Shown here: positions 27,220 to 64,000 of the stretch, piece after piece
Layout: each line of letters starts with the position of its first letter
How positions within the stretch are numbered: position 1 is the first letter of the stretch
Assembly (NCBI GenBank): GCA_963575745.1
Contig: CAUYUJ010000026.1
Coordinates: 434,001-498,000, forward strand
Origin: Prorocentrum cordatum
Lineage: Eukaryota
Length of the DNA: 64,000 nucleotides
Direction of reading: 5' to 3'
Program-made: the position numbers and the translations under genes
The notes under the pieces: generated by a model
What the model was told of the DNA's origin: nothing
Seen by the model: only the letters and a program-made list of their open reading frames with translations
The model's database searches: none

Positions 27220-28234
27220 CTAATAATTGGCGTGGTCACAGAATCCTTGTTCCAAGCCCTCCCAGAAATCTGAATCCTTCGCGGTGTCCAACCAACTCGT
27301 TGCATCCACGTTGTGGCCAGCATCCTTGAGGTACTGGACAATGTCATATGCCCACCTCTTCTTCGGTCGGTGTTGCCGACGTCCGCGCGCCTGGGGGTCG
27401 TCTGCAGCGTGCCAAAGAAAAGACTTCAGCGCCCACCTGTCAGCCGGTATCGATGCCACTCGTGCCGCGAATCGCCAAACTTTGCGTCTCCAGGACACGC
27501 AACAGTTTTCAATGTGTAGCTTGTTCAAATGGTTATCCACGATCTCTGTTGCACGCCTTATCCAGTCCACCCAATTTTCGACGGTGTCTGAATCAAACGT
27601 TTGTCCTGCTCCGCTGTCGGCCGTAGACGACGGCGACGAAGAAGTTGTACATTCAGATTCTGGCTCTGCCGGTTGTCTCGCGTGTTTCCTGCCGATCCCT
27701 GATCCCAAACAGCATCCAGAGCATCCAGCATTGAGTGTTTTGTAATCTGTTTTGCGAGGCAGCCGACAGTGTCCAGCTAGAGGCACCGTACAGAACAGTA
27801 GGGGTAACAATGCTCTCAAATAGGCGAAGCCTGCATTTTAAAGAAGACGTCTTGTTCGTCAGCTCGCTTTTGTCCGTATAAACTTGATTCAAAAGTGCAA
27901 CTTGTTTTCCAAGATACTTCACAGCAACATTAGGCGGCACGATCTCAATCTGCATATAGTCCACTGTAGAGTGTGTTCTGCTCCCCCTCCCTGTGCCTTT
28001 CGTCGCACTGGTTATGATATTCGTCTTATCTGGGTGCAACTGTAAACCCACTGCGGCTGCTTCAACTCTCACGTCAGATGTCATTCGAACAACTTGCTGC
28101 CATCTTTGCCCGACAAGGAAAACGTCGTCCGCGAATATCATGCTTGTCAACCGGCTCAGCTCTGTGTATCCGAATTGTAATCCGTATTTTCTCTTGTGCC
28201 ACTTCTCCTTGACTGTCGGGAAAATGTTCTCCAG
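27220..28234 (-). mobile_element. 5'-truncated, frameshifted non-LTR retrotransposon (LINE, RTE-like) RT C-terminal fragment
   Basis: IFADDVFL, GLQLHPDKT, KYLG, RLRLFESIVTPTVLYGASSWTL; a second frame has WVDWIRRAT...WRFAARV...RPKKRWAYDI. Confidence 0.88.
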
Positions 28235-28409
28235 GAGGGGATGGGGGTCTGGAGAATGTCCTCCTTGACTGTCCGGAAAATCTCTCCTTGACTGGGGGTG
28301 GGTGGGGAGGCACGGAAAAGGGGGCGGAGGGCCCCCGCGCAGGTCTCAAGGCTGACGCAGCAAGTCTGATCATGCCAAGTCAAGTTCGCCCAAATATGGC
28401 CAGTCTCAA

Positions 28410-45900: not shown

Positions 45901-48900
45901 ACGCCGCTGTGGGCACCATGGCTGCGCTCGGGCTCCACGGCGACCAGCCGCTCCTGGCTCTGGTCGTCGAGCTCCTGGAGCACCAGGACCGCACAGGCGG
46001 ACAAGGTGCCGATACTGCTGCCCTTCCCCAGGTTCCACTTCTGGCAGCTTTCCCCAGGAGGCCCTCGGCGCCACGGCCGGATTCGCCTCGAACTTCTGGC
46101 CAGAGCGCGCCCCGGGAGAACGCACCCCGGGAGAGAGGTCTGGGGAGCAGCGGTGTCGGTATGTTCGGGTGTCCCCAGGACAGGGACGTGCGGCTTGCGG
46201 CGGCGCGCGCTCTGGGACAGCTCGCCGCCGCGGGCGATGAGTGGGTGGCGAACGCCGTCGCGGCCCGCCTGGGCGCCGAGGACGTGCTCACGCGGCTGGC
46301 CGCCGCGCATGCGCTGGAGGCGGTCGCCGAGAGGGGCGGCGCGGGCTTCGCGGCGGCGCTGGAGGCCCGCCTGCGCGACCCCGACCGGGACCTCCGCCGC
46401 CACGCGGTGCGGGCCCTCGGCCGGCTGACGGCGCCGGGCACTCCGCGCGCCGCTGAGGCGGCGGCGCGGGCCCTGGAGGACCCCGACGAGAGCGTGCGGG
46501 AGGCCGCGCTGGAGGTGCTGGCCAGCGGCGGCCCGTGGGGCTCGGCGGAGGGCGTGGCCCGCCGGCTGGAGCACGCGCGCGAGGCTGCGAGCAGTGGCGA
46601 AGCGGCCTGGCCTGCCCCGTGGGCTCACCAGAAGTCGTTCTGAGAACCTTGCTGTGTGTGTGGCTTTGAAGGAATAGCCATCGGCGGCGAGCGAGGGGGG
46701 GAGTGAGCAGGAGAAGGCCTTCTCGGGAGGCGGCGGGGCTTCTCAGAAGCCCTCTGGCCTTTGAGGAGTTGTTGGCGTCTTCGGGGAAGGCTTAGACAAC
46801 TTCTCATAAGGCCCGGGCTTATCACTTCCCCCCCTCGCTTGCTGCCTAAACTAGCATGTCAGTATTGTTTCAGCCGACTTTGTGGATAACTGTAGATAAC
46901 ATCGTTTGCGCTATCAGAGCATCCTTTTGTCCCAAGAACATGCGAGCGACGAACAAAAAAACAGGGTCGATTGCGCGGACATTGTTGCGTAAGCTGCCCG
47001 CGTAAGGTCGCGCGGAAGTGCCTTCGTTCCCACTGCAGCGTGCGGGCTTGGCGGCCCGCGCGCGTAAGCCACCGCGTAAATTCGCCCTGCCATCTCGCGT
47101 AAGACCCGTTTCTTTTTCGTCGAACGTATCGTGGTAGGCCTACAGGGATGCCAGGACGGTCGGTTCCTGCTCAACGAGGAGGTGCGGGCGGCGGCAGCAA
47201 GGGCGCTGGGCGCGGCGGCGGCGCGCGGGGACGCCTGCGCCGTCGAGGCGGCTTGCTCCCAGCTGGCACACGGCGACGTGGACGTCCGCGCCGCCGCGTG
47301 CGCGGCGCTGCGAGCGGCAGAGGGCAGAGGTCAGCATCGTCTCACAAATAGGGTCAGGAGCATGTGCCTGGCGTGTCGCAGCTGCGGCCCCAGCGACACG
47401 CTATGCCAGGGGAGCGGATAGCGTATCGCTCCGCTTCGCGGGGCGGGAAGCTGGAACAAGCTTGGGACGCTGACGCTCGGGGACCGCGATGTGGATGGCG
47501 TGTCGCGCTGGGGCGTGGTGGGCCAGAACCGGCGCCGCGACACGCTAAACGAAAGCTCCTGACCAGATCCCCATCCCCACTGGGCCATACTGCGTATCCA
47601 GAATCCCTTCGCGTCGTGACAACATCACGACCGAAGCTTTTGTTGTCATTGTCAGCCTTTGGCGGCCCTGGCCGGCCCCCGTGGGCCGCCAAAAAACGAC
47701 CCAGGATGCAAAGCAAGTCCCGAGGAATGGGTCGAGACCTGTGGGGGTCGGCGTCGGCGTCGTGAGCAAAAACACGACGTCGTGGGTCTGGGGTCTCAGC
47801 CCCACCGGCCCACCCCCTCTGGGGGTTGGGATGGGGCCCCACGAAGCCCGAAGGGGCAGGCACACATCCCCCCTCCCCAGGTTGATAAGCCGGCCAGTGG
47901 GGATAGGGAGCGGTCCGCCGATGCTCGAGAGGGGACAGGCGCGCGGTGAGCCGGGCGATCGAGCTGTCCTCGCACCCCGCGCGCGACGTCCGACTCCTCG
48001 CAGTTCAGCTGTTCGGCGAGTTCGCGGGGGGCGGCGATCTGGAGGGAGCGGAGGCAGCGTTGGTGGTCCTCACGGAAGACTCCGACCCCGACGTCCGGGG
48101 CGCAGCTGTGCAGTCCCTCGGCGTCGCCGCACACGCGGGGAGGGAGCGCGGCAGAGGAAAGGGTTCCTATGCCGCTGCCCTTCCTCCGTTTTCGCTTTTG
48201 GCGGCTTCCTTGGATGCCCTACGGCTGGATTCGGCTCGATATACTGCTCAGAACGCACCAGCATCGCGAAGCAGCCCAGCGTCAAGGTGAGGAAGTGACG
48301 AACGACAACGGCAATGGCTGCCAGGCGCAACCAGCGAACAGTGCCCTCGCCGCGGTGGCCTCCTCAGCGCTGGGGGCGCTGGGGAGGCATAGCGCACCGG
48401 TAGGGGAGCAGCGGTATCGGTACCCGTTGCCGAGGAGCAAAAATGACACACACACACATTATTCATCTTGCGGAGGTCCGCGCGGATTTCTTGGATGGGC
48501 GCTGGACCACCCTCCCTGGCGCGCGGAGCGCGCCAGGGGCGGCGCCGGAGACGCCGCCAGGGCCAGGGTGGGGCCCTGCGCCGATCCAAGCAACCAGCGC
48601 GGACTTCCGAAATAATCTGCTTATGTGATTTTGGTATTCCTCGCTTTTGGTTTCACGAGGAGCGGGTCGTGTCTGCAGTCGTCGCGCGGCTGCGGGACGA
48701 CGTCCCTTCGGTCCGCCAGAGAGCCCTGTGCGCACTGGGCGCTGTTGCCGAGAGGGGCGACGAGCATGCGGCGCTAGCTGTGGCCCGCTGCCTGGGCAGC
48801 GCCAGTGCTGGCGTGCGGCTGGTCGTGGTCCAGGCGCTGGTGAGCGTGGCTGCTGTCGGGGCGAAGCACGCCATTCTTCGGCATGGTTGAACCGATCCCT

Positions 48901-50139: not shown

Positions 50140-51830
50140 AGGGCCTCCAGAGGCTCCCAAGACGGCCCAAGCGGGCCCCGAGTCGCCGAAAGACCGCTCC
50201 AGGACGCCCAAGATAGGCCCAAGACGGCCCGAGAGGCCCCCCAAGGCACTCCACGACGCTTCAAGACGCCTCTCCAGAGCGCTTCAAGAGACCGAAATCG
50301 TAAATTTTACGAAGGTTTTCGTACGATTTTGGCCTTCCAGCCTTTTCGGCCGTCCGACGTCCAAGACGGCTCAATAGGCCCCCAAGAGCGCCCCAAGAGG
50401 GCCCCAAGAGGGCCCCAAGACGGCCCCAGAGTCGCCCAAGACAGCCCAACAGAGCCCCAAGACGGCCCCAAGATGCGCCCAAGAGGGGGACCGGGGGACC
50501 ACGACTCCAAAATTCGACCCTCCCGCTTGAAGAGTGCCCCAGGAGGCTTCAATTAGCCCCCAAGAGGCCCCAGGAGGCCCCCAAGAGGCACCCAGGAGGC
50601 CCCCAAGAGGCACCCAGGAGGCCCAAACGAGGCCTAAAGAGGCAACAAAACAGCCCCGAGGAGGCCCCACAACGGTCCCAAAACGGCTTCCGAGAAGCTG
50701 TGAAACTGCCTTCACGACGTCCCCGACAGGCCAACCACGAGATCCAAACCAACACCCATGAGGCCTCTGACCCACCACCCAGGGCACGGCGGCGGGAGCA
50801 GTGACAGCACTTGTGCACAGCATGTTCCGGCGGGAGCCTTCCGGAACACGCTGCAGGAGGAGGAGGAGGAAGATCAGGAGGAGAGAGAGCTGGAGTGGGA
50901 GGAGGAGGAGGAGGAGGAGGAGGGGGACGAGGAGGAGGAAGAGGCCTCCAAGACAGCTCCAAGATAGCCGAAGAGGCTTCCAAGAGGGCACTGGGCGGCC
51001 CACGAGGGCCCCAAGGCGGTGCCTGAGGCGCCCAAGACGGCCCGAGAGGGCCCCAAGACGGCCCCAAGAGAGGCCCATGAAGGGAAACACGAACTGAGAA
51101 TCCGAGCTTCCTACCCAGAGAGGTTCTCGGGAAGTCCCAAGAGGCCCCCAATCGGATCCAAGAGGCTACCAAGAAGCTCCCAAGAGGGCCGAGAAGGTTG
51201 CAAGAGATCTCCCAAGGTGGCCCCAAGAGGCACAACTCATTGTTTTACGATAGGGCTTTGACGGGTTTTAATGTTTGTCGGCCTTTTGGCATCCCGATGC
51301 TCCAAGACGGCTCAAGAGGCTTCCAATACCGATCCAATATAGAGGAAGAGGGCCCCAAGACGGCCCGCGAGGGCCCAAAGACGGTGCTTGAGGCGCCCAA
51401 GACGCCCCGAGAGGGCCCCAAGAGCCCCAAGAGAGGCCCAAGAAGGGGAACGCGACCCAGCAGCAGAGCGTTCCCCCCAAAAGGCCCACAGGAGGCCGCA
51501 AGAGGCCCCCAAGTGGTCCGACGAGGACCCCAAAAGCTTCCCGAGGGCCCAAAAGGCCCCTAGGAGACGCCCAAGAGGTTTTAAAATAGCCCCAGAGTGC
51601 CCTCGATGCGTCAAAACTGCTTCCAAGAGGCCCCCGGGAGGCTTCCGGATTGCCTCAATCCGGCCGCAGGTGGCCTCAAGTCGGGCCTGCACGCAGCCAA
51701 GACGGCCAATGACGGCTTCAGATTGCAGAGCCGATGCCCCCAAGGGACCCTCAGACGCCCCCCCAAGAGGCACCCAAGAGGTGCCTCCAACAGCCAGTTG
51801 ACGAAGCATGCGGAACACCCCAGAAGCTCC
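50140..51830. repeat. Degenerate CCCCAAGA(CG/GG) repeat family; reverse-orientation tracts at ~11840-12200, 15125-15310, 32130-32520, 33765-34260
   Basis: GCCCCAAGACGG / GCCCCAAGAGG units recur throughout. Confidence 0.85.
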
Positions 51831-51942: not shown

Positions 51943-52026
51943 ATGAACACGTTTACGGTCAATGTGTGGGCGAAGGGGTAATGAGCGAACGTTGGCCGCA
52001 TCAGAATGCATGGCAGCCTTTGTGGC
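51943..52026 (+). repeat. Split direct repeat A1 (84 bp)
   Basis: ATGAACACGTTTACGG...CCTTTGTGGC matches 59679-59762 with one mismatch. Confidence 0.95.
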
Positions 52027-52047
52027 TCAGGGCCTGGGAGGCCTGGG

Positions 52048-52332
52048 ATGCTCCCTGCTTGCGCCACCGCGCTCTCCACCGCCCCGCGGGCCCAGCGGCC
52101 TCGGATCTGCGGCTGGTGCGCTGGGCGCCTCGCCGAGGGCGAGAGTTTGGCCCTCGCGGAGGGCGGGACGTTGTTGGAGGTGTGCGAACTGTGCTACCTC
52201 CTCGCACTGGCGCGCCAGGGGGCGCGCGAGGCGCGGCTGGCGCCGCAGGAGCGGGCGCTGCTCGTCGAGCAGGCGCGGTTGCTGGCGGCGCAGATCACGG
52301 CGCTGTCGACCTTGTCGCCTGATGCCGCCTAA
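52048..52332 (+). CDS. Small upstream ORF (94 aa) of the retroelement with a CxxC-x21-CxxC motif
   Basis: ATG at 52048; MLPAC...RICGWC...VCELCYLL...; its 3' end overlaps the gag start. Confidence 0.4.
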   Translation: MLPACATALSTAPRAQRPRICGWCAGRLAEGESLALAEGGTLLEVCELCYLLALARQGAREARLAPQERALLVEQARLLAAQITALSTLSPDAA

Positions 52333-53940
52333 GGCCAAGGGCAAGGCCAAGGCCAAGGCCAAAGGCAAGGCGAAGGCGAAGGCCCTTCCTGCGCCTCTCG
52401 CTGCCGCCCGCGGGCGAAGCGCTGTCCGTGGCGGAAGACGTGGCGCTCGCGGGCGCGTTGGCGCAGCTGCTGGAGCGGCAGGGGCGCCCGTCGGCCTCGG
52501 AGGCGGCCTCGCGCCCGCAGCTGGAGGTGCAGCTGGCGGGGGGGCTGGAGGTGGCGCTGCTGGGGCGCCAGTGGTGCCGGGGCTCGGCGGCTTCCATGGC
52601 CTGCCTGGAGCCGTCGGCGTGGGCGCCGCGGGCGCCCCCCCCCCTGTCCTCGGGGCGCCTGGCGACGGCGCGGGTGGCGGCGGCGGCGGCGGCGTTGAAG
52701 CGGCGCTGGTTGGGGCGCTGGCCGCTGCAGGCGCTGGCGGTGCTGGAGGCGCGGGCGCGCCGCCTGGCGCTGGGCCCGCGGGGCCGGGCGCTGCCCTCGG
52801 CGTGTTGGGAGGCGCGGTCGTCCCGGCTGCGGGGCTGCAGCTTGGCGGGCTCGTCGACGGGGCCTGGACGCAGGCCTCCACCCTCATCGGGGCCAACTGG
52901 AGCCAGGGCCTGGCCGTGGAGCTGCCGACCCACGAGGCGACGGGGGCGAACAGTGGGACCGCGCTGTTCGAGATCGATGAGGTCGGTGTACCAGGTGCTG
53001 GAGGTCAGTATCTCAGCGCGCAGTTCAGGGGCGCGTCGTTGCCCGCCGAGGCGATGCGCTTTGACGGCGCCTTCCCTCCGCGGGGCGGCGGTCCTGCTGG
53101 GCTGCTGCACCTCTGCGCGCAGGTGCCTGCGCGGTGTGGCGAGCCTGCGCAGGCGGGCCGCGCCGTCCTGCACGTGGAGTGGCTGCGGCTGCGCTCGACC
53201 CACGGGCTGGTGGAGCCCTGGGTGCGCCCGAGCGTCTTCGGCGGCCGTGGCGGTGGAGCTGGTCGAGGCGGTCCCTCTCCCATCCCTGGCGGAGCCGCCG
53301 CCGAACGCCTGGCGGCGGCAGCTGCTGCCCGCGCGCTTGCGGTCGGAGGCGGTGGCAGCCGCGGGGTGACAGGCCGCGGCAGGCGTCGGGCTCGCAGTGA
53401 GTCTGGCAGCCGCAGTGATGGCGAAGGCGAGCCGCGTTTTCGCGACGCCCCCTCTCGCGGCGGCAGCGCGCGGCTGCTGGCGGAGAGGCAGCCTGGCGCC
53501 CTCTACGACGAGGCGATGCAGAACATCGCCCGCGTCATGGGCCTGCGGGAGGGGGCGGACGGTTCCGAGACGAGGCCGAAGGTGGTTGGCTATTTGCAGG
53601 CCATCGTGTTCGGCCACCACCCCGTGTCCCAGCTGCGGGTCAACACGGTGCGGGATCTCCAGACCTTGGCGACGGCGCTGGACCAGTTGGAGAGCGGCTC
53701 TCTGCCGCAGCTGAGCGACGCGTGCTGATGCAAAGGTTCAAGGCTCTGGAGCTCTCGCTGTCGAACGCGGGCTGGCAGGTTGCGAGCGAGCTCGAGATCG
53801 TCCCGGACGTGAGGCCGTCGCTGGCGTCGATGGGCGAGCAGGATCTAGCGCGGCGCTCGGCGCTGCTGAGGAGGCGCTTGGAGGAGGCCAAGAGCCGCGG
53901 GGCCTTCGGGGCGCTCGGCCGCGGCCAGGGGCGCGGGTGA
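52322..53940 (+). pseudogene. Gag-like ORF1 of the YR retrotransposon, frameshifted near 53722
   Basis: It is the first long ORF and starts MPPKAKGKAKAKAK. LATALDQLESGSLPQLSD continues after a frameshift into LMQRFKALELSLSNAGWQVASELE, a helical segment resembling ORF1 of dinoflagellate DIRS-like elements. Confidence 0.65.
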
Positions 53941-54417
53941 CCCGAGGGGGGGGGCGCGGGGGGGCCAGCGGCCGCGCTTCCCCTCTCGAGCCGCGCTCCA
54001 GCCAGCGCGGGAGCTCTCGCGCGGCAAGGGCAAGGGTCGAGGTCGCGGGCGTTTCCGCTACTTCCCGCTCCGAGGGAGCAGCCCCGCTCACGCTCCAGGG
54101 TCGCCAGCGGCAGCGCCTCGGGCCGAGGAGGCACCCGCCGCAGCGCCCTCAGGCCCCCGCGCGCGGACTCCGTCTCCCCAGACGGAGCGGACCCCCCGGG
54201 GAGACAGCCCCCACCCGCGCCGAGTTGTGCTAGCGGGGAGCCCCGAGCGCCGCACCTTCAGGCAGGACGAGCCAGCGGCGGCGGCGTCGGCTCCCCAGGG
54301 AGCAGGACGCGGTCGCCCGAGACGCCGCGGCGGCAGGGGACGCAACGCAGGGAGGGCCAACGGCTCGCGGCCCCGCCCGCCTGGCGGCCGCGGGACTGGC
54401 CCCCCGGCGGCGGCGCG

Positions 54418-56254
54418 GTGAAAGCCCGCGGTGACGATGCCCTTGCTGATGACGCCCGGGCCGCAGCAGCCGCTTCGTTGCAGGCTGCTGCGCCGTGCGG
54501 ACCGCCTGGGGCTTCGCCGTCGCGTTCGCTATCTGACCGCTGCGCTGCGACCCCGCTGCAGTTGCCGCCTGCCACTGCTGATGAGAACTCTTCTCGACAC
54601 GATCCACTGGAGGACTGGAGAGAGCTTACTGGGGCTGCTGGTGACTTGGTCCGTGAGCCTTATGACGTGGGCCCGATCCTTCTCAACCTCGTCAAGGATT
54701 TCCCTGGTTCGTTCGGTCGCTACGTCCGCGTCTCCCTCAAACCTCAGCTGCGCGAGCACATGGCCACCATGGGAGGTCGGCTGCAACGTGACTTGCTGCC
54801 GTTACCGTACCCTACCATCGTGAAGACCGACGTCGCGCGCGACGGCGATGACCTTAACGACTTGGACTGGGGGGCGCCCCACTGCAGGCTGGTTGCCACG
54901 GTGCTGGCGCTCAACGGGGAGGCAGGCTTCCGCTCGCTGAAGTTCGCGCGCCTCTGCCGCAGGCGCCCGAGCGCTGCTCAGCGGGCAGCCTTGGCTGCCC
55001 TGGGTCGCCCCCTGTACCTGGCGACGCGCATCGAGACCAGCCTGCCTGCAGAGCTCAACTGGGAGGACCGCCTGAAGGACCGCAAGATCGGCTACGGCGG
55101 CGCCGAGATCACCGCGCCTCATGTGCTGACCGTGGAGCAGGTGCTGGACGGCTTGCCGCCGCCTGGGGTTGCGGCCTCGATTGAGGCTGCCGAGGTCGCG
55201 ACGGGCTTCGTGCGCGACTCGTTGCTGGGCTCTGGGCTGGTGCTGCTGCCGCCTGCGCTGAGCCGTGCGGCGCCGACTTCGGTGCGGGCCCACGACGCCC
55301 CTGTCAAGTGCGAGGACGGGGTGCTGAGGCCCGTGCTCAGGCTCATCTCCAATCTGGTCCCGTCGAACGCCTGCCAAGAGTGCATCATTGGCGACGCGCC
55401 CGAGATGCCGACGATGAGCCAGCTGAACGGCCTGGTCTTGACGGAGTCTGAGGACTTGGTGTGGAGCGGCGCCGACATGAAGGCCTTCTTCTACGCCTTC
55501 CGCGCGCCGCCGCCGTGGTGGCCGTACATGGGGATTGGGCCGCCAGCGCCGTCGCGCCTACTGGGTCTCAAGGACGGCGGCACTACCCACATCTGCCTGC
55601 GCGTGATCGGCATGGGCTGGTTCAGCGCGGCGGGGGTCACGACTCATCTTCATCGCGACACACTGCGTCGCAGCAGCGCGGTGCCTCGCGGCCTGTGCCC
55701 CGGCTTGGAGATTACCCGGCGCCGCCGCCTGCCGCTTGGTGCAGAGAAGCCCTGCCCGCCTGCCTGGATGATGATCGACAACTTAGAGATCGCCGAGGCC
55801 GTCGACAAATCTGAGGCCGACAAAGCTGCGCGGGACGGTCCCCGAGCTGCTGTCTGACGCCCGTGCCTGCTACGAGGCCACGAGGTCGCCTGGGTCCCCA
55901 GGCAAGGACCTGCACCGCGTGGTGCGCGCTACCACGCTGGGCGAGCTTGTTGATGGCGTTGAAGGTGTCCGTCGGCCGCCGGCGGGATACATTGCTGCGA
56001 AGGCCAATTTCGCGCTCTGGGTTCTGGGCAAGAGGCGGGCCAGCATGCAATTGAAACGTGTTCTTCCTGGGCGCTGGGGTCGCGGGCACTGCGTCCGCCG
56101 CCCTCTGGCCGCAAGCTTCGCTTACACTTGGGAGTGGCTCAACGACCCGCGCTGTGGAGGCCGCTTCAGCGTGAGCGTGATCGAGGACTTGCTGATGTGC
56201 CTGGCCTTGTCGGGGCTCTGCGTGGTCGACATGAGGCTCGAGGTCGACCACCTG
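54418..56254 (+). pseudogene. Reverse transcriptase (DIRS-type) and tether region, frameshifted near 55830-55920
   Basis: Motifs RLISNLVPSN, WSGADMKAFFYAF, LRVIGMGWFSA and a degenerate YxDD-equivalent MIDN; the downstream frame has TTLGELVDG...GRW...RRPL. Confidence 0.85.
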
Positions 56255-56300
56255 GTGGCGGCCTCGGACGCGTCGGAGGCCGCTGGAGCCGTGGTGTACA
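56255..56300 (+). pseudogene. RNase H N-terminal catalytic strand (SDAS motif)
   Basis: VAASDASEAAGAVV is the DIRS-type (T/S)DAS motif. A TACA duplication at 56297-56304 shifts the frame; removing it reads into STALTERG and the DNMT. Confidence 0.8.
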
Positions 56301-56384
56301 TACAGCACGGCGCTTACCGAGCGCGGGCGCGTCGTCGCGGGCAGGCGCCAGCGGCCCGCGAACGCCGCCCGCGAGGAGGAGACC

Positions 56385-57383
56385 GCCCTGATCACCGTCT
56401 TTGACGGCATCGGCGGCGGGCGCGGAGCCTTCGTGATACTGGGCCTGGTACCAGCGGTTCGCCTGTCGTTTGAGGTTGACCCGCAGGCGGTCCGCGTTGC
56501 GCGGCGCGCTTATCCTGACACGCAGCACCTCGGGGATGTTACATCTGCTGACCCCGCTGCCTTGGCTAGCCTACTGCGGGCCCGCGGCCGCATCGCCCGC
56601 GCGGTGATCATCGGCGGCTTCCCGTGCCAGATCTACACGAGCTTGAACGTCGACCGCAAGGGCTCGTCGGACTCGCGCGCCTCGCTGGTCGATCACATGG
56701 CGAGGGTCATCCGAGGTCTGCGTGCAGCCATGCCCGAGGTGAGCGTTGACTTCCTTGGCAACAATGTTGCATCAATGGCCGAGTCCGACGTCCTTCACCT
56801 CAGCGGGTTGTTCGAGCGGACCCCCTTGGAGGTTGAGGCTGGTGACGTCGGCTGGGTGAGGCGTCCTCGTCTCTCCTGCCCGTCCTGGGACTTGCTGCCG
56901 TCGTACGAGGCCAAGACCGTGATGGTGCTGACCAAGGACGGGGCCTCTCGCCGCCTGTGCCGCGCGTCGCTGGAGGTGGAGCGCCCGCCGCTGGAGGAGT
57001 GGCTGCCGGCTGGCGCGCGCTGTCCTGGAGCGGAGGGGGACGCGCCCCTCCCAACGCTCGCTCGTTGGACTCTGCACTCGCAGCCGCGCCCCAGGCCCGC
57101 GGGCATCGGGGAGTGCACGGCTGCTGAGATAATGCGCTGGGAGGAGGCGGCCTTCGCGGCGCCGCCCTACCAGTTCCGTGACAAGTGGTGCATTCATTGG
57201 CCTGACGGACGGATCGCGCCTCCTGGCGCGGTGATGAGGGAGAAGCTGATGGGCTTCGCCGAAGGCCACACCGTGCCGTGCAGGACCAGCAGTGAGGCGG
57301 AGGCCGAGCCCGTCAAGTACGAGGGATTGAGGCGTTCGCTGGTCGGCAACTCGTTCCAGTGCGTGGTGGTGGCGTGGCTGCTG
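56385..57383 (+). CDS. DNMT3-like C5 cytosine DNA methyltransferase domain within the retroelement pol
   Basis: Motif I FDGIGG (56400-56417, in frame upstream of the track ORF), EVDP, GDV, motif IV GGFPCQ (56613-56630), motif VI FLGNNVASM (ENV altered), motif VIII RRPRL, motif IX EKLMGFAEGHT, motif X RRSLVGNSF. Confidence 0.92.
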
Positions 57384-57632
57384 GCGCACTGGGCTGTCGC
57401 TGCTGGGCTGCTGGTGGCGGTGCCGCCGTTCTCCGAGCTGCACGAGAGCGCTCGGGCCTGGGTTGGCGGGCGCAAGCTGTGGGCTGGCGACGTCACCTCG
57501 CTGCGACGCAGCCGTGCGAAGGTCGGCTCGGAGGTCTGCGGCGAGCTGGTGGCCCGCAGCGCAGCCGCATCGAGCGAACGCCAGCGGGCGGGTGAGCGGC
57601 CCGCCGCGGCGGCGCCGGCGACGGGCGGCAGC

Positions 57633-57866
57633 CTCGTCTACGTCGTGCGCGGCTCACGGCGCTGGAGCCTCGCCCCGTCCTGTTTCGGCAACCCGTTCGC
57701 AGTGAGCCCGAGCTACTCCCGCGAGGACGCGGTGGCGCTGTTTGCTGGATGGCCGCGCGGCCAGCCCGAGCTGCTTCGCCACCTGGGGGACTTGCGTGGG
57801 GCCAAGCTGGTTGGCCACTGCAATCAGTCCGAGACATGTGATGCAGATGTGTTGCTTGCAGAGCTG
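57633..57866 (+). CDS. DUF4326-like domain, in frame after the DNMT
   Basis: LVYVVRG...SCFGNPF...REDAVALF..W...LLRHLGDLRGAKLVGHC...CDADVL fits the DUF4326 pattern VYIGR..S.WGNPF..R..A...L.GK.L.C.C...CHADVL. Confidence 0.72.
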
Positions 57867-58021
57867 GCCAGACAGGATGCTACGTCTTGGCGTGATCCGG
57901 ATGTCTCGCGTGAGCTGGTGACTAGTCTTGCGATGGCGTGCCACGGTGATGGTGCGAACCTTCATTGTGACAAAAGCTCTGAGGAGCAGGTCTTTGGCAG
58001 TGGCGTAAGGCACGAGAGCTG

Positions 58022-58321
58022 GTGTGGGATCTCCCTGAACATATCCATGTGCTGGAGTGCCAGGGAGCGCTGATGATGATTCGATGGCGTGCTCAAGCTT
58101 TGGGCCGACAGCAGCGAGTCTTCTTGCACCTCCTCGACAGCATGGTCAACGTCGGTGCGCTCTCGAAGCGCCGCCCCAGCAGCAGTCAGCTCAGCAAGGT
58201 TGCGCGCAGCTTCTCGGCCTGTGAGCTAGCGATGGGCGCGCGGGCGGTGTTCAGCTTCACCTCATCAGCTCGGAACCCCGCGGGCGCGCCGTCGCGCCTG
58301 AAGCATGGGGAAGCAATCTAG
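58022..58321 (+). pseudogene. RNase H C-terminal part (DIRS-type)
   Basis: EHIHVLE, LHLLDSMV, LSKRRPSS and NPAGAPSR (canonical NPADxPSR); out of frame with the upstream DNMT/DUF4326 ORF. Confidence 0.85.
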
Positions 58322-59246
58322 CCCCGCCGACAGGCGCACAACCAGAGCTGGCCTTGGGAAGCTGCGGGATGCCCGGATCGGCGCTGCCACTCTCGCCAGA
58401 TATCGCCGGGCAGCCCAGCAGTTTGTTGACTACCTTAACGCCATGAGTCTGCCGTTGCCGTTCAGTTGGGAAGACATGGATGTCACATTACAAGACTACC
58501 TTGAATACTTGTGGGCCGAGGGTGCCACTAAAGGTCAAGCTAACGATACACTGAGTGGAGTACAGCACCTGTTGAGGACGCGCCGGCAGTGCCCAGGCGC
58601 GTGGAGATTGCTGTCAGTCTGGGGGCGCCTAGAGGTGCCGCAGCGTGCGCCACCGATGCCGCCGCTGGTGTGCAGCGCGCTCGCAGGCTGGGCGCTGGGC
58701 CGCGGAGAGATCGCCTTCGCCGCGACGATCCTCGCCGGCTTCCACCTCTGCCTTCGGACAGGCGAGGCTCTCGGCCTCTCCAGCGGCGTCATTCAGCTCA
58801 AGCCTTGCGGCAGAGGCGTGGTGTCGTTGCCCTGGACTAAGACAGCCTGTCAGAAGGGAGCACGAGAGACGGTGACGCTGGATGACCCGCTCGTAGGAGC
58901 AGTCGTCCATATGCAGCTGCAGCGTGACGGCCGTCCGTGGCCCTCGCCTCCTCGTGCCTTTCATTTGCTTTTTCGCACTGGCCTTCGAGAGATTGGTTGC
59001 GCGCATCTCGGCCTCGTCCCGTATAGTTTGCGTGGAGGCGGAGCTACGCACGAATATTTGTTCTCAGGCGACTTGCCTAAAGTGATGCTTCGAGGTCGTT
59101 GGAGCTCAATGAGGACAGCAAAGATTTATATTCAAGATGGGGCCGCAATTTTGGCCGAGATGCGATTTCAGCCTGCCGCCCGTTCCTCGTTCCAGACCTT
59201 CTCAGATACCTTGATTGCCCGTGTTCGGGCGCATTGTAGCAAATAA
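58305..59246 (+). CDS. Tyrosine recombinase of the retroelement (313 aa, intact ORF)
   Basis: TLARYRRA N-terminal helix, LCLRTGE (catalytic R), LPWTKT (K), PYSLRGGGAT, RGRWSS...AKIYI (W, catalytic Y); overlaps the RNase H end. Confidence 0.93.
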   Translation: MGKQSSPADRRTTRAGLGKLRDARIGAATLARYRRAAQQFVDYLNAMSLPLPFSWEDMDVTLQDYLEYLWAEGATKGQANDTLSGVQHLLRTRRQCPGAWRLLSVWGRLEVPQRAPPMPPLVCSALAGWALGRGEIAFAATILAGFHLCLRTGEALGLSSGVIQLKPCGRGVVSLPWTKTACQKGARETVTLDDPLVGAVVHMQLQRDGRPWPSPPRAFHLLFRTGLREIGCAHLGLVPYSLRGGGATHEYLFSGDLPKVMLRGRWSSMRTAKIYIQDGAAILAEMRFQPAARSSFQTFSDTLIARVRAHCSK

Positions 59247-59358
59247 CCTCGAATCTAGGCCAGGTGCGACTCTCCAGGGAGCTTGTGGGCGGCTTTCAGC
59301 CATATTTCGGAACACCTTGGAGAGCTTTTTGGAGAGCTTTTCGGGTGTTCTTGGAGTG

Positions 59359-59678
59359 GAGAGCTTCTCTCGGGCTTTTGGGCACAGCGTGGTGCGAGTC
59401 TGCTCCCTCTCGAGGCCCACTTGGGACGGCGTTCTGACCCCGGTCGTTGGACGACGGTGGTACACTTGAGGTGTGATTCCTGCCGTGGCCTCGGGGTGAG
59501 TCTTGGGGCTCGCACATGCTGGTGCCGTTGTCCCGAGGCATTCGAAGCTCTGTCAACAGCTTTGGCCAACGAGTAGAGGGAGTAAGAAGGGGCGAAGCCC
59601 AGGGTGAGTGTTCAACGTGAGTTGTGGCTCCCCCTTTATTCCCGATGAGCTACCGCTCTAACCCCCGCCTGCACACAC
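59359..59678 (+). repeat. Split direct repeat B1 (320 bp)
   Basis: Matches 59839-60158 at an exact offset of 480 bp; about 6 mismatches counted by eye. Confidence 0.95.
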
Positions 59679-59762
59679 ATGAACACGTTTACGGTCAATG
59701 TGTGGGCAAAGGGGTAATGAGCGAACGTTGGCCGCATCAGAATGCATGGCAGCCTTTGTGGC
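59679..59762 (+). repeat. Split direct repeat A2 (84 bp)
   Basis: Copy of 51943-52026, directly abutting B1. Confidence 0.95.
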
Positions 59763-59838
59763 CCGCCCACATCCGCCCTGTGCCATGCCGTCCAGGCATC
59801 TTCTCTGCCTGGCCGTTCTGCCTCGTTCAGCGTCTCGC

Positions 59839-60151
59839 GAGAGCTTCTCTCGGGCTTCGGGGCACAGCGTGGTGCGAGTCTGCTCCCTCTCGAGGCCCAC
59901 TTGGGACGGCGTTCTGACCCCGGTCGTTGGACGACGGTGGTACACTTGAGGTGTGATTCCTGCCGTGGCCTCGGGGTGAGTCATGGGGCTCGCACATGCT
60001 GGTGCCGTTGTCTCGAGGCATTCGAAGCTCTGTCAACAGCTTTGGCCAACGAGTAGAGGGAGTGAGAAGGGGCGAAGCCCAGAGTGAGTGTTCAACGTGA
60101 GTTGTGGCTCCCCCTTTATTCCCGATGAGCTACCGCTCTAACCCCCGCCTG

Positions 60152-60158
<7 letters not shown>
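59839..60158 (+). repeat. Split direct repeat B2 (320 bp), right end of the element
   Basis: Copy of 59359-59678; runs into a (CA)n(TA)n microsatellite. Confidence 0.95.
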
Positions 60159-60193
<35 letters not shown>

Positions 60194-61728: not shown

Positions 61729-62053
<325 letters not shown>

Positions 62054-62799: not shown

Positions 62800-62988
62800 G
62801 GAGGAGGGAGGAGGAGGAGGAGGAGGAGGAGGAGGAGGAGGAGGAGGAGGGAGGGAGGAGGAGGAGGAGGAGGAGGAGGAGGAGGAGGAGGAGGAGGAGG
62901 AGGAGGAGGAGGAGGAGGAGGAGGAGGAGGAGGAGGAGGGAGGAGGAGGAGGAGGAGGAGGAGGAGGAGGAGGAGGAGGAGGAGGAAG
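62800..62988. repeat. (GGA)n microsatellite, one of many in the window (e.g. 1410-1655, 4270-4455, 7606-7680, 9340-9645, 12670-12920)
   Basis: Directly visible in the sequence. Confidence 0.97.
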
Positions 62989-64000
62989 AGAGAGTGATCA
63001 GACCTTCGCAGCAGCGAGGCTTCGAAGAAGGCTTGGAACGCGTCTCAGACGGCCGTAGTAGGCCTTCTGAGCCGCTTGAGGAGCTTCCGCCCACTCTGCA
63101 TTTCCACCCCGGGGCGCGGCACCTTTCACCCTTCGCCTCTCCTGGCTACGCGCGCTCCTTCTCCTCCGTTCGTCTCTTGCTTTCCCTCCTTCCTCTCGTC
63201 CTTGTCTCCTCCTCTCCGCTCCCTCGCGAAGGATCAGCATTGAACTGGCCAGGATCAGTGTCAGTTCTTGGCATCCGTTGTGTACGGTGTCGTGCGAGAA
63301 GCTGTTCCTGACCCCCCTCCGGCGCCGTACGGACCGTGGGCGCCCCCTGTGCGGCCCCGCCCCCCATCCTCAGGTCGAGCTTGTCGCGCCCTTCGCCGCC
63401 AGCGCGGCATGCGGCATGAGCTTCGACGCGTCGGGGTCAACTGACCCACTAGGCAACGCCACGTGCCGCGGCTTGGCGGGAGGAGGTGAGAATGAGGATG
63501 TTTGGATCGGACCTGGCAGTGCAAGGCAGGAGCATACCAGACCGGCGCGGATCAGTACCCCGCGCTAGCCCCCAGCCAATCTGGTGAGGCCTTTGCAGCC
63601 CGCGGCGCGTTCTGATCGAGGCCACCCCTCCTCGTGGGAGCTCCTTCTGCGAAGTCTCTGGAGGCTAAAGCAGGCGAGAGGCCTTCGTAGCCAGGGCCCA
63701 CAAGGTTATCGGCATGCGTTCGCGAAGCAGCCGGGCTTCGGTGATCGCCTGGCTGCTGCATATACGCAGTCCGGCTATGGCACCTGCCCGGCCAGAGCAC
63801 CTGGCGTCGATGTTGGCTTTTCAGTGCACTTGACCCTTGTGGTAGGGTGTACAAACAGGCTACTGTTTACCTCTAACGTCTTCGGCTGCTCAATGGATAA
63901 GACAGTTGTCTGAAGTCATGGAGCCAGCATCGCAAAGCGGATTTCGTTCGGAAAAGAGTAGACGCGGCCCGAATTGTCCTGGAGAGTTTCGTTCCGGATT

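What the first reader, a model, noticed from the sequence alone, without database searches (positions are those of the whole stretch)
56255..58321. Retrotransposon RNase H split by a two-domain cargo: DNMT3-like methyltransferase plus DUF4326
Seen: the first RNase H acidic motif (SDAS, 56264-56275) lies about 1.75 kb from the remaining motifs (HIHVLE, LDS, NPAxxPSR). The gap holds a complete C5 methyltransferase (motifs I to X) followed in frame by a DUF4326-like domain. Known: DNMT-bearing DIRS, LINE and LTR retrotransposons were reported in Symbiodinium (de Mendoza et al. 2018), so DNMT capture itself is not new. Inference: the polyprotein RT-RH(N)-DNMT-DUF4326-RH(C) would place a DNA-modifying module where cDNA is made, possibly marking the circular intermediate before YR integration. 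I am not aware of a description of this exact tandem-cargo layout.
Basis: partly seen in the sequence, partly recalled or inferred. Interest (0 to 1): 0.88.

Follow-up and report, generated by a model that had tools for sequence, protein, structure and literature searches.

The report
Methylase-carrying DIRS retrotransposon, decayed copy
This is a broken copy of a dinoflagellate jumping gene whose copying enzyme has a DNA-methylating module and a little-known second enzyme domain wedged between two parts of its RNase H; the methylase-bearing family is already known, while the second domain looks new.

Summary
SDAS (56264-56275) lies 1.78 kb upstream of HIHVLE/LLDS/NPAGAPSR (58040-58297). Between them is one ORF with Pfam DNA_methylase and DUF4326.

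The locus is an 8.2-kb DIRS-order element with A1-B1-A2-B2 split direct repeats, in Prorocentrum cordatum-like DNA. This copy is decayed. It has three frame-breaking indels and changes at 8 of 65 near-invariant residues.

Intact relatives read RT-SDAS-DNMT-DUF4326-RH(C) in one frame. So the cargo is not a later nested insertion.

The "split RNase H around a DNMT" layout is not special to this element. Of 145 dinoflagellate Pol proteins carrying all three parts, 124 have it without DUF4326, including Fugacium kawagutii models, the species of the published SymbioDIRS-Dnmt3.

DUF4326 appears to be the new part. It sits at three different places in these polyproteins: after the DNMT, inside the RT, and at the N-terminus. 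At least two origins are implied.

That SDAS is strand 1 of the RNase H fold rests on invariance (41 of 41 rows) and weak colinear Pfam hits.

Verdict: new variant of a known kind.

The parts
51943..52026 (+). Repeat A1 of the split direct repeats (left end of the element)
   Evidence: 84 nt, 98.8% identical to 59679-59762
51947..53728 (+). ORF1, gag-like by position only; very G+C-rich and low in complexity
   Evidence: 593-aa open frame. No Pfam family. No CCHC knuckle. Weak tblastn match to the N-terminal part of P0037
53941..55857 (+). Pol, first frame: N-terminal region and reverse transcriptase up to motif C (reads MIDN here, YIDN in relatives)
   Evidence: tblastn to P0016, P0015 and P0033. 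The motif C aspartate is kept in 41 of 41 rows of A2. Y to M at 55771
55822..55825 (+). Frameshift 1: one extra base relative to relatives
   Evidence: Frame change in tblastn, sequence. 2 related contigs lack one letter at 55822
56177..56299 (+). RH(N): helix-like VIEDLL... segment, then LVAASDASEAAGAVVY with the putative first catalytic Asp (SDAS 56264-56275)
   Evidence: Translation. S, D and A are invariant in 41 of 41 rows. Sub-threshold PF00336 hits cover the equivalent segment in 4 relatives
56297..56300 (+). Frameshift 2: TACA duplication
   Evidence: Sequence. Relatives read AVVYSTALTERGR. 4 letters are left out in 2 related contigs, depth 19 of 19
56385..57362 (+). DNMT3-like C5 cytosine methyltransferase domain, motif I to motif X; ENV reads NNV and the motif VIII W reads C in this copy
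   Evidence: PF00145 at 26.3 bits. Best PDB sequence hits are DNMT3A. Motif coordinates. Changed residues
57633..57857 (+). DUF4326 domain; the CHC...CHAD motif reads GHC...CDAD in this copy
   Evidence: PF14216 at 38.1 bits, aa 468-541. phrog_464, E 4.6e-11. Atlas nearest clusters are all DUF4326. Alignment of 28 element-borne copies
57986..57988 (+). Frameshift 3: about 34 bases missing (11 codons plus 1) relative to relatives
   Evidence: tblastn frame change, sequence. 33 extra letters at 57987 in contigs of X1, X2 and X3
57989..58321 (+). RH(C): GLWQW strand(s), HIHVLE (Glu), LLDS (Asp), NPAGAPSR (Asp changed to Gly here), then the Pol stop codon
   Evidence: Translation. Alignment A3. 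Conservation: E 38 of 41, D 41 of 41, D 36 of 41. hhalign register to E. coli E48 and D70. Atlas lead to RT_RNaseH and RVT_3
58305..59246 (+). Tyrosine recombinase ORF; its ATG at 58305 overlaps the end of Pol by 17 nt
   Evidence: ORF. 76% identical to the C-terminal part of P0010. No Pfam hit for this copy. Weak Phage_integrase hit in relative P0116 and precomputed PF00589 in P0071
59359..59679 (+). Repeat B1
   Evidence: 321 nt, 98.1% identical to 59839-60159
59679..59762 (+). Repeat A2
   Evidence: Copy of A1
59839..60159 (+). Repeat B2 (right end of the element, running into a CA microsatellite)
   Evidence: Copy of B1

Best explanation
The locus is a dead copy of a DIRS-order retrotransposon that integrates with a tyrosine recombinase. 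It has PAT/Ngaro-style A1-B1-A2-B2 repeats and lies in Prorocentrum cordatum-like DNA. It belongs to the DNMT3-bearing DIRS lineage first described in Symbiodinium.

In that whole lineage the Pol polyprotein reads RT, then a short segment with an invariant S-D-A (taken as RNase H strand 1 with the first catalytic Asp), then a DNMT3-like methyltransferase, then the rest of the RNase H (Glu in HINxLE, Asp in LxDS, Asp in NPADxPSR). In the window's sub-lineage a DUF4326 domain was added between the DNMT and RH(C).

How intact copies most likely work:
- RT makes cDNA.
- An RNase H assembled from the two segments around the inserted module removes the RNA. This is inferred, not shown.
- The DNMT methylates CG on the new cDNA. 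De novo CG methylation by the isolated DNMT domain was shown in yeast for two Symbiodinium relatives; for this family it is inferred.
- DUF4326 is predicted by others to be a phosphatase-like domain acting on phosphates linked to ribose. Here it would be an accessory enzyme acting on a nucleic-acid end or a nucleotide/ADP-ribose-type mark during or after reverse transcription. This step is speculative; I give it about 0.25.
- The recombinase from the overlapping ORF integrates the DNA.

The window's own copy cannot do any of this.
For: Element. Split direct repeats at 98-99% identity; ORF order; one copy in the window.

Host. 13 of 14 hits and 21 of 23 hits are named Prorocentrum cordatum.

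In-frame layout. P0015, P0016 (83% identity; 472 of 569) and P0033 (37% identity; a 1355-aa ORF on a 7.7-kb unnamed contig) read straight through SDAS, DNMT, DUF4326, HINVLE and NPADxPSR.

Family-wide split. Of 145 proteins with all three parts by local HMMs, 124 have RHN-DNMT-RHC without DUF4326, 18 have DUF4326 after the DNMT, 2 have it inside the RT and 1 has it at the N-terminus (with P0036 relabelled). Among named models, 17 of 19 'Skav' models and 2 of 2 Effrenium voratum proteins show RHN-DNMT-RHC. One Amphidinium carterae protein keeps both RNase H parts around a degenerate DNMT.

Conservation in A2 (41 rows, 26-92% identical to row 1). SDA 41 of 41, E 38 of 41, D 41 of 41, D 36 of 41.

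RNase H identity:
- Sub-threshold hits to one Pfam model, PF00336, fall colinearly on both sides of the DNMT in 8 of 81 proteins. Four hits match profile positions 22-130 and lie upstream; the SDAS segment was confirmed inside two of these. Four hits match profile positions 166-205 and lie downstream; NPADxPSR was confirmed inside three of these.
- hhalign against 79 bacterial RNase HI gives P 0.005-0.016. It aligns HINxLE to the E48 helix and LxDS to D70.
- Atlas look-alikes carry RT_RNaseH, RVT_3 and Peptidase_A17. The last is really an RH domain according to PMC6681497 (passage).

DNMT3-like. PDB best hits.

DNMT activity of relatives. PMC5890265, section 10 passage.

Decay of this copy..
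Against: No structure was predicted, so the claim that RH(N) completes the RNase H fold is not shown.

The RH(C) profile finds no RNase H in the PDB by sequence. It finds no RNase H family in Pfam.

The PF00336 hits are all below the curated cut-off (11.4-16.9 bits against 22.4). None occurs in the 7 window-family proteins scanned (P0010, P0014, P0015, P0016, P0024, P0030, P0033).

Joining RH(N) to RH(C) did not raise the hhalign score (21.0-22.0, against 21.4 for RH(C) alone).

No DNMT-less relative with a contiguous RNase H was found among the best 150 of 951 RT hits. So the ancestral, uninterrupted state was not seen.

Many P. cordatum proteins are gene models that skip pieces, so details of single models are unsafe.

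Nothing tested here bears on what DUF4326 does.
Confidence: 0.8

Rival explanations
1. The SDAS segment is not part of the RNase H fold. It would be the tail of the RT thumb or connection, or a relic of an older, degenerate RNase H. The working RNase H would then be RH(C) alone, perhaps with the conserved G-x-D-x-R-L-D segment supplying a strand and an acidic residue. On this reading the DNMT simply sits between RT and RNase H and nothing is split.
For: RH(C) is preceded in all families by a conserved G-x-D-x-R-L-D / W-x-W stretch (G in 41 of 41 rows, D in 34 of 41). That stretch could form extra strands.

In the P0035 family only about 14 residues separate SDAS from the DNMT, so a full strand 2 is missing upstream.

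hhalign gained no score from adding RH(N). No structure could be computed.
Against: S-D-A is invariant in 41 of 41 rows, as well kept as the RT motif C Asp. That fits a catalytic residue better than a linker.

RH(C) alone offers only three of the four carboxylates.

PF00336 sub-threshold hits run through the SDAS segment at profile positions 22-130 and resume at 166-205 after the insert, colinearly.

The pattern hhh-[ST]-D-A-S-x-x-G-G-G is the usual start of retroelement RNase H. This last point is recalled, not tested.
Confidence: 0.15
2. The three reading frames (RH(N), DNMT-DUF4326, RH(C)) are the native state. The cargo would be a separate overlapping ORF, or reached by programmed frameshifting, rather than part of one polyprotein.
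For: In the window, RH(N) and RH(C) share one frame and the cargo lies in another.
Against: Relatives are in one frame throughout.

Related contigs lack the +1 and the +4 and carry the missing bases at 57987.

The shifts are a 4-nt duplication and a roughly 34-nt deletion, not slippery sites.
Confidence: 0.03
3. The DNMT/DUF4326 block is a later nested insertion of another mobile element or host gene into this copy, or an assembly chimera.
For: None found beyond the frame changes at both borders of the block.
Against: The same order is found in 18 proteins of this sub-lineage. The DNMT sits in the same place in 124 more, across the orders Prorocentrales, Suessiales and Amphidiniales.

No repeats flank the block.
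Confidence: 0.02

Closest known systems
SymbioDIRS-Dnmt3 retrotransposons of Symbiodinium (de Mendoza et al. 2018, PMC5890265; passages and figure legends read, figures and the main supplementary PDF not seen)
   Same: DIRS-order element with A-coding-B-A-B repeats. A DNMT3-like domain lies inside the Pol ORF together with RT and RNase H. The tyrosine recombinase is in a separate ORF.

Proteins of F. kawagutii (17 of 19 'Skav' models) show the same RH(N)-DNMT-RH(C) order by my HMMs. They fall in one tree with the window's family.
   Different: The window's sub-lineage adds DUF4326 between the DNMT and RH(C). DUF4326 is not mentioned in that paper's text or in its 3 readable supplements.

The paper, as far as I could read it, lists domains by Pfam hits and does not say that the RNase H is interrupted. 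Its figure 1e may show the order RT-DNMT-RNase H; I could not see it.

The host is Prorocentrum, with G+C of 62-68%.
DIRS1-group elements with a Dam-like N6-adenine methyltransferase domain (Goodwin and Poulter 2001 and 2004, as cited in PMC3783388 and PMC5890265; only the citing passages were read)
   Same: A retrotransposon with a tyrosine recombinase whose Pol carries a DNA methyltransferase as an accessory domain.
   Different: There the methyltransferase is an adenine methylase placed after a complete RT/RNase H (order RT, RH, MT in PMC3783388). Here a C5 methylase lies between two parts of the RNase H.

DIRS1 proper has inverted terminal repeats, not split direct repeats.
KnitGypsy-Dnmt3 of Klebsormidium nitens (PMC5890265, passage read)
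   Same: Independent capture of a DNMT3-like domain into a retrotransposon Pol.
   Different: It has a Gypsy-type Pol with a DDE integrase. It is unrelated to the dinoflagellate elements according to the paper. No DUF4326 is reported.
DUF4326 proteins of phages and giant viruses (PMC7824862, PMC9503650 and bioRxiv 10.1101/2025.06.06.658234; passages read)
   Same: The same Pfam family, and the nearest Atlas clusters are phage or bacterial DUF4326.

[quoted passage not shown] That gives a precedent for pairing DUF4326 with DNA-modifying enzymes.
   Different: Those are stand-alone proteins of about 90 aa, or fusions in DNA viruses. None is part of a reverse-transcriptase polyprotein. Their function is only predicted.

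Membership tests
DIRS order (tyrosine-recombinase retrotransposons), split-direct-repeat type (PAT/Ngaro-like) | Terminal repeats arranged A1 - internal - B1 A2 B2 | tested here: met
   A1 51943-52026 and A2 59679-59762 (98.8% identical). B1 59359-59679 and B2 59839-60159 (98.1% identical)
DIRS order (tyrosine-recombinase retrotransposons), split-direct-repeat type (PAT/Ngaro-like) | Reverse transcriptase with a YxDD-type motif C in Pol | tested here: met
   YIDN/YLDD column: D in 41 of 41 rows and Y in 38 of 41. Weak RVT_1 hits in P0132, P0155, P0048 and P0063. The window copy reads MIDN. No Pfam RT hit for the window ORF; de Mendoza et al. also note that these RTs escape Pfam
DIRS order (tyrosine-recombinase retrotransposons), split-direct-repeat type (PAT/Ngaro-like) | Tyrosine recombinase ORF instead of a DDE integrase or protease | tested here: inconclusive
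   The 314-aa ORF 58302-59246 has no Pfam hit at E up to 0.1. It is 76% identical to the tail of P0010. Relative P0116 hits Phage_integrase at E 0.019 and P0071 carries a precomputed PF00589. The R...HxxR...Y reading of its motifs is recalled. No DDE or protease family was found in any ORF
SymbioDIRS-Dnmt3 lineage | DNMT3-like C5 methyltransferase inside the Pol ORF of a DIRS element, homologous to the Symbiodiniaceae copies | tested here: met
   The window ORF hits P0036 (E 1.6e-32). The P0036 region hits F. kawagutii and Effrenium models at 41-55% identity over 99-100% of RH(N)-DNMT-RH(C). All fall in one tree
C5 cytosine DNA methyltransferase (PF00145) | Score above the curated cut-off, plus the catalytic motifs PCQ (IV) and ENV (VI) | tested here: inconclusive
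   Score met (26.3 bits against 22). PCQ is present at 56613-56630. ENV reads NNV in this copy (E kept in 39 of 41 relatives) and the motif VIII W reads C. The family is a member; this copy is probably inactive
DNMT3 subfamily | Closer to DNMT3 than to other DNMT classes | tested here: met
   All 26 best PDB sequences for P0033 are DNMT3A, 3B or 3C (5.5e-10 to 1.9e-6), then plant DRM2 (2e-3). The window copy gives the same order. No DNMT phylogeny was run here; the class assignment of the Symbiodinium relatives comes from PMC5890265
DUF4326 (PF14216) | Score above the curated cut-off, plus the conserved GNP...CxC...CH motif | tested here: met
   38.1 bits against 25; relatives score 46-62 bits. 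phrog_464. The motif is kept in at least 90% of 28 element-borne copies. The window copy has C to G and H to D in it
Type 1 (retroelement) RNase H | Four conserved carboxylates (D, E, D, D) in the canonical order | tested here: met
   D in SDAS 41 of 41, E in HINxLE 38 of 41, D in LxDS 41 of 41, D in NPAD 36 of 41. The first lies upstream of the DNMT. The window copy has NPAG
Type 1 (retroelement) RNase H | Significant match to an RNase H sequence family or solved structure | tested here: not met
   No RNase H in the PDB by profile. No Pfam RNase H family for 12 RH(C) segments. Only sub-threshold PF00336 hits in 8 of 81 proteins, hhalign P 0.005-0.016 and Atlas leads at 0.85-0.91. CDD's DIRS-specific model cd09275 (named in PMC3783388) is not on hand
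Type 1 (retroelement) RNase H | RNase H fold in which the upstream strand pairs with the downstream part | not testable with these tools

The most novel reading that the evidence does not exclude
DUF4326 is a recurrent partner of the methyltransferase in dinoflagellate DIRS elements. It was recruited or moved at least twice and is tolerated at three sites in Pol: in the loop that already holds the DNMT inside the RNase H, inside the RT between motifs B and C, and at the N-terminus.

That would mean two things. First, it supplies an enzymatic step these elements need on their cDNA or against a host nucleotide/ADP-ribose-based defence. Second, both the RT and the RNase H of these elements are natural scaffolds for inserting whole enzyme domains, the RNase H carrying 450-550 residues of foreign enzymes inside its sheet.
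Probability: 0.35. Interest if true: 0.65.

Novelty: new variant of a known kind. Interest (0 to 1): 0.5.

Why it matters
DNMT-bearing DIRS elements are one of the few cases where a transposon carries the enzyme class that hosts use to silence transposons.

Two points here add to that picture.

First, the DNMT lies within the RNase H region across dinoflagellate orders, not merely 'in Pol'. It sits between the invariant SDAS segment and the other three catalytic motifs. If the fold is really split, the methylase is held next to the site where the RNA/DNA hybrid is processed.

Second, a Prorocentrum sub-lineage added DUF4326, a domain of unknown function. Others have linked it, by prediction only, to ADP-ribose/nucleotide processing and to DNA-modification systems of phages and giant viruses. 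Related elements carry it at other positions. That gives DUF4326 a new, eukaryotic, experimentally tractable context alongside a DNMT with a known assay.

The window's own copy is dead and has no importance of its own.

Tried and rejected
No model, so no fold search.

Complex prediction. Complex prediction of RH(N) with RH(C) (alignment A2, residues 590-650 and 1165-1316) met a full queue. It was declared unavailable. Nothing was folded.

Whole genome. None is held for this window.

Earlier findings. Three look-ups gave nothing.

RNase H by sequence:
- The A3 profile against the PDB gave only a spurious UNC18 hit.
- Pfam on 12 RH(C) segments gave no RNase H family.
- hhalign of RH(C), RH(N) and 15 joined variants against 79 bacterial RNase HI gave probabilities of 3-7% at best and no gain from RH(N). 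Global mode was meaningless.

DNMT-less relatives. I looked for one with a contiguous RNase H among the best 150 of 951 RT hits and found none. P0230 and P0194 have degenerate inserts.

Other collections. DNA of relatives was sought in metagenome contigs (P0016, P0033) and viral contigs (P0016) with no confirmed match. Alignment A2 was too divergent for that tool.

Sequencing runs. No RNA holder is listed, so nothing can be said on expression.

Tree test. The AU test on the 46-row tree with the mixture model did not finish. It was redone on 27 rows with LG+G4.

DUF4326 function. No PDB sequence match, no PADLOC family, and papers on DUF488 were uninformative.

Spliced-leader relic. A 21-nt motif recalled from memory had 0 matches with up to 3 mismatches.

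Codon positions. I counted by hand the codon positions of the differences listed. There was no third-position excess, and the count is uninformative because it mixes this copy's own decay with family variation.

My local 'DUF' HMM labelled P0036 as DUF-bearing. That was an artefact of alignment columns: Pfam is negative and the hit covers only linker positions.
Full report
**What is in the window.** The window has 56-75% G+C in 2-kb steps and no Rfam or tRNA hit.

Between 51943 and 60159 lies one element bounded by split direct repeats. A1 (51943-52026) recurs at 59679-59762 (A2, 98.8% identical). B1 (59359-59679) recurs at 59839-60159 (B2, 98.1% identical).

Inside are open frames in this order:
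- a G+C-rich ORF1 (51947-53728)
- Pol in four pieces: 53941-55857, 55787-56404, 56235-58073 and 57983-58321
- a 314-aa ORF (58302-59246) whose ATG at 58305 overlaps the Pol stop by 17 nt

tblastn with six relatives finds only this one copy in the 64 kb.

**Check of the observation.** SDASE is at 56264-56278. GLWQW is at 57989, HIHVLE at 58040-58057, LLDS at 58130-58141 and NPAGAPSR at 58274-58297.

The 612-aa ORF between them passes Pfam's own cut-offs:
- DNA_methylase: 26.3 bits against 22
- DUF4326: 38.1 bits against 25

The DUF4326 part also hits phrog_464 (E 4.6e-11). Its nearest Atlas clusters are all DUF4326 (score 0.91).

The window ORF's best PDB sequence matches are DNMT3A (E 1.2e-4). 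For the intact relative P0033, all 26 best distinct PDB sequences are DNMT3A, 3B or 3C (5.5e-10 to 1.9e-6), followed by plant DRM2.

One correction: motif VI reads NNV, not ENV, in this copy.

**Host and relatives.** The ORF's relatives are named Prorocentrum cordatum in 13 of 14 hits and in 21 of 23 longer hits.

P0016 is 83% identical (472 of 569). P0015, P0016 and P0033 (37% identical, unnamed) read in a single frame through ...LVTASDASEAAGA..., the DNMT, DUF4326...HINVLE...LLDS...NPADxPSR. P0033 is a 1355-aa ORF on a 7.7-kb contig.

A motif table over 37 proteins gives the same order wherever the parts are present. The cargo is therefore an in-frame part of Pol and not a nested insertion. 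No repeats flank it.

**State of this copy.** Relative to those proteins the window has three indels:
- one extra base near 55822
- an extra TACA at 56297
- about 34 missing bases at 57987

Contigs from public runs were laid at 90% likeness or more. Two contigs lack the extra base, and two lack the TACA (depth 19 of 19). Contigs of X1, X2 and X3 carry 33 extra letters at 57987.

Those contigs differ from the window at other letters too, so they are other copies. X1 may be the window's own source. None carries the TACA duplication, so I cannot say whether that indel is a mutation or an assembly error.

Decay is real in any case. The copy differs at 8 of 65 covered near-invariant columns, including YIDN to MIDN, ENV to NNV and HIN to HIH. 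NPAD reads NPAG. The DUF4326 CHC...CHAD motif reads GHC...CDAD.

**The split layout is family-wide.** I searched with the RH(N)-DNMT-RH(C) stretch of P0036, a relative without DUF4326. That gave 160 proteins, of which 120 are listed. Many cover 99-100% of the stretch. They include 'Skav' gene models of Fugacium kawagutii, other EukProt dinoflagellate models and Effrenium voratum.

I built four local HMMs (RHN, DNMT, DUF, RHC) from alignment A1 and ran them on all proteins in hand.

Of the first 156 proteins, 104 have RHN-DNMT-RHC in that order without DUF. In none do RHN and RHC lie side by side.

Of 145 proteins with all three parts:
- 124 have no DUF4326
- 18 have it after the DNMT
- 2 have it upstream, within the RT
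- 1 has it at the N-terminus

P0036 was relabelled as DUF-less, because Pfam is negative for it and my HMM hit there is an alignment artefact.

Among named models, 17 of 19 'Skav' models and 2 of 2 Effrenium proteins are RHN-DNMT-RHC. An Amphidinium carterae protein (P0194) keeps both RNase H parts around a degenerate DNMT.

The orders Prorocentrales, Suessiales and Amphidiniales are thus covered.

De Mendoza et al. 2018 describe SymbioDIRS-Dnmt3 as DIRS elements with A-coding-B-A-B repeats and the DNMT in the Pol ORF with RT and RNase H. I read passages and legends only. I could not see figure 1e or the main supplementary PDF. The element here is a member of that known lineage.

**Is SDAS part of the RNase H?**

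Evidence for:
- In alignment A2 (41 rows, 26-92% identical to row 1) S, D and A of SDAS are invariant. The other candidate carboxylates are kept in 38 of 41 (E of HINxLE), 41 of 41 (D of LxDS) and 36 of 41 rows (D of NPAD).
- Pfam model PF00336 ('DNA polymerase (viral) C-terminal domain') gives sub-threshold hits in 8 of 81 proteins scanned: 5 of 42 and 3 of 39. That it includes the hepadnaviral RNase H is my recollection, not a call.
- Four of these hits match profile positions 22-130 and lie upstream of the DNMT. For P0039 and P0057 I confirmed that they contain the SDAS segment.
- The other four match profile positions 166-205 and lie at the C-terminal end. For P0058, P0076 and P0277 I confirmed that they contain NPADxPSR.
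- One model matched colinearly on both sides of the insert is what a split domain predicts.
- hhalign of RH(C) against 79 bacterial RNase HI aligns HINxLE with the E48 helix and LxDS with D70, at P 0.005-0.016.
- Atlas look-alikes of RH(C) carry RT_RNaseH, RVT_3 and Peptidase_A17 (0.85-0.91). Peptidase_A17 is said to be an RH domain in PMC6681497 (passage).

Evidence against:
- All PF00336 hits are below the cut-off (11.4-16.9 bits against 22.4). None is in the seven window-family proteins scanned.
- The RH(C) profile finds no RNase H in the PDB or in Pfam.
- Adding RH(N) to RH(C) did not raise the hhalign score.
- No DNMT-less relative with an uninterrupted RNase H turned up among the best 150 of 951 RT hits.
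- Structure and complex prediction, the direct tests, were unavailable for the whole session.

I put the split-fold reading at about 0.75. Whether the insert sits after strand 1 or after strand 2 is open. The P0035 family has only about 14 residues between SDAS and the DNMT.

**DUF4326 is the new element of the story.** Besides the window's position after the DNMT, it occurs in two other places.

- Inside the RT, between the PMGW motif and YIDN. This is seen in P0034, P0035 and P0243 (all named P. cordatum) and in P0183, a 448-aa ORF on a 1.6-kb unnamed contig.
- At the Pol N-terminus. This is seen in P0206 and P0215, both unnamed.

P. cordatum also has DUF-less copies (P0037).

I built trees from RH(N), DNMT and RH(C) columns only:
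- The after-DNMT group is a clade (SH-aLRT 99).
- Its sister is the in-RT group. Joint support is 95 in FastTree on 145 rows and 93 in IQ-TREE quick on 46 rows.
- The N-terminal type sits elsewhere. Its sister P0191 (and P0309) lacks the domain.
- Holding all DUF-bearing rows together is rejected (p-AU 3.8e-5; 27 rows, LG+G4). The group was named after I had seen a tree, which weakens that test.

The DUF4326 cores are 31-40% identical between positions. Their GNP...CxC...CH motif is kept in at least 90% of 28 copies.

So the domain was gained or moved at least twice and is under constraint.

**Literature on DUF4326.** The word occurs in 9 papers of the library, none on retrotransposons or dinoflagellates. 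It does not occur in de Mendoza 2018. No paper combines Prorocentrum cordatum, genome and DIRS.

What is written about DUF4326, from passages read:
[quoted passage not shown] - It is fused to homologues of an anti-Avs protein in amoeba viruses (bioRxiv 10.1101/2025.06.06.658234).

All of these are predictions.

**Mechanism.**
- Shown elsewhere: isolated DNMT domains of two SymbioDIRS-Dnmt3 copies methylate CG de novo in yeast (PMC5890265, section 10 passage).
- Inferred: in intact copies of this family the DNMT acts on the cDNA made by the same polyprotein, as those authors proposed.
In Dictyostelium, DIRS-1 cDNA is mostly linear and single-stranded (PMC7192593).
- Speculative: DUF4326 adds a hydrolytic step on a phosphate-bearing end or mark of nucleic acid or nucleotide.
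- The element shows no CpG depletion (observed/expected 1.00, against 0.88 in the rest of the window). That neither supports nor refutes methylation.

**Verdict.** The finding is real. The DNMT-in-RNase-H layout belongs to a known lineage. The DUF4326 addition and its three positions appear to be undescribed. This is a new variant of a known kind, and the copy in the window is dead.

Noticed in passing
window 57004-57161: A 156-nt in-frame skip inside the DNMT's variable region is present in one contig each of runs X1 and X2. Gene models P0001 and P0010 lack about the same segment. This may be a sub-family with a shortened target-recognition region.
   Followed up: no
relatives P0034, P0035, P0183, P0243 (no window coordinates): About 125 residues containing DUF4326 are inserted inside the reverse transcriptase, between the PMGW motif and YIDN. 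This is a whole enzyme domain inside an RT palm region.
   Followed up: partly
relatives P0206, P0215: DUF4326 sits at the N-terminus of a DNMT-bearing DIRS Pol. The sister sequences P0191 and P0309 lack it.
   Followed up: partly
window 57948-57988 (remnant); A2 positions 1183-1189 of P0016: A conserved G-x-D-x-R-L-D segment (G in 41 of 41 rows) and a P-R...W-x-W stretch precede RH(C) in every family, with or without DUF4326. Its role is unknown. The window's 34-nt deletion lies between it and the W-x-W stretch.
   Followed up: no
relative P0194 (Amphidinium carterae, EukProt): A protein keeps SDAS and a good RH(C) but has a degenerate, motif-less stretch of about 300 residues where the DNMT should be.
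   Followed up: no
window 27656-28345 (-): A fragment of another reverse transcriptase (RVT_1, E 4.6e-5, below cut-off). No other family was detected in the neighbouring minus-strand ORFs.
   Followed up: partly
window 45378-46640 (+): An open frame with HEAT repeats (HEAT_2, E 7.9e-17). It is probably a host gene exon.
   Followed up: no
window 50380-51443, 61729-62052, 62800-62990: There are tandem repeats of 11, 21 and 22 nt (CCCCAAGAGNG type) just upstream of the element, a long (GT)n array and a (GGA)n array downstream. The element's right end runs into a CA repeat.
   Followed up: no
window 51943-60159 against the rest of the window: The element is richer in G+C (68% against 62%) and has a CpG observed/expected ratio of 1.00 against 0.88 in the rest of the window.
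   Followed up: no
relatives P0015 (1103-1137), P0030 (1042-1078): Weak hits to PF22751 'Active DUF488-N3 subclade' (E 0.1-0.17) overlap the C-terminal half of DUF4326. This may be a distant family link.
   Followed up: no
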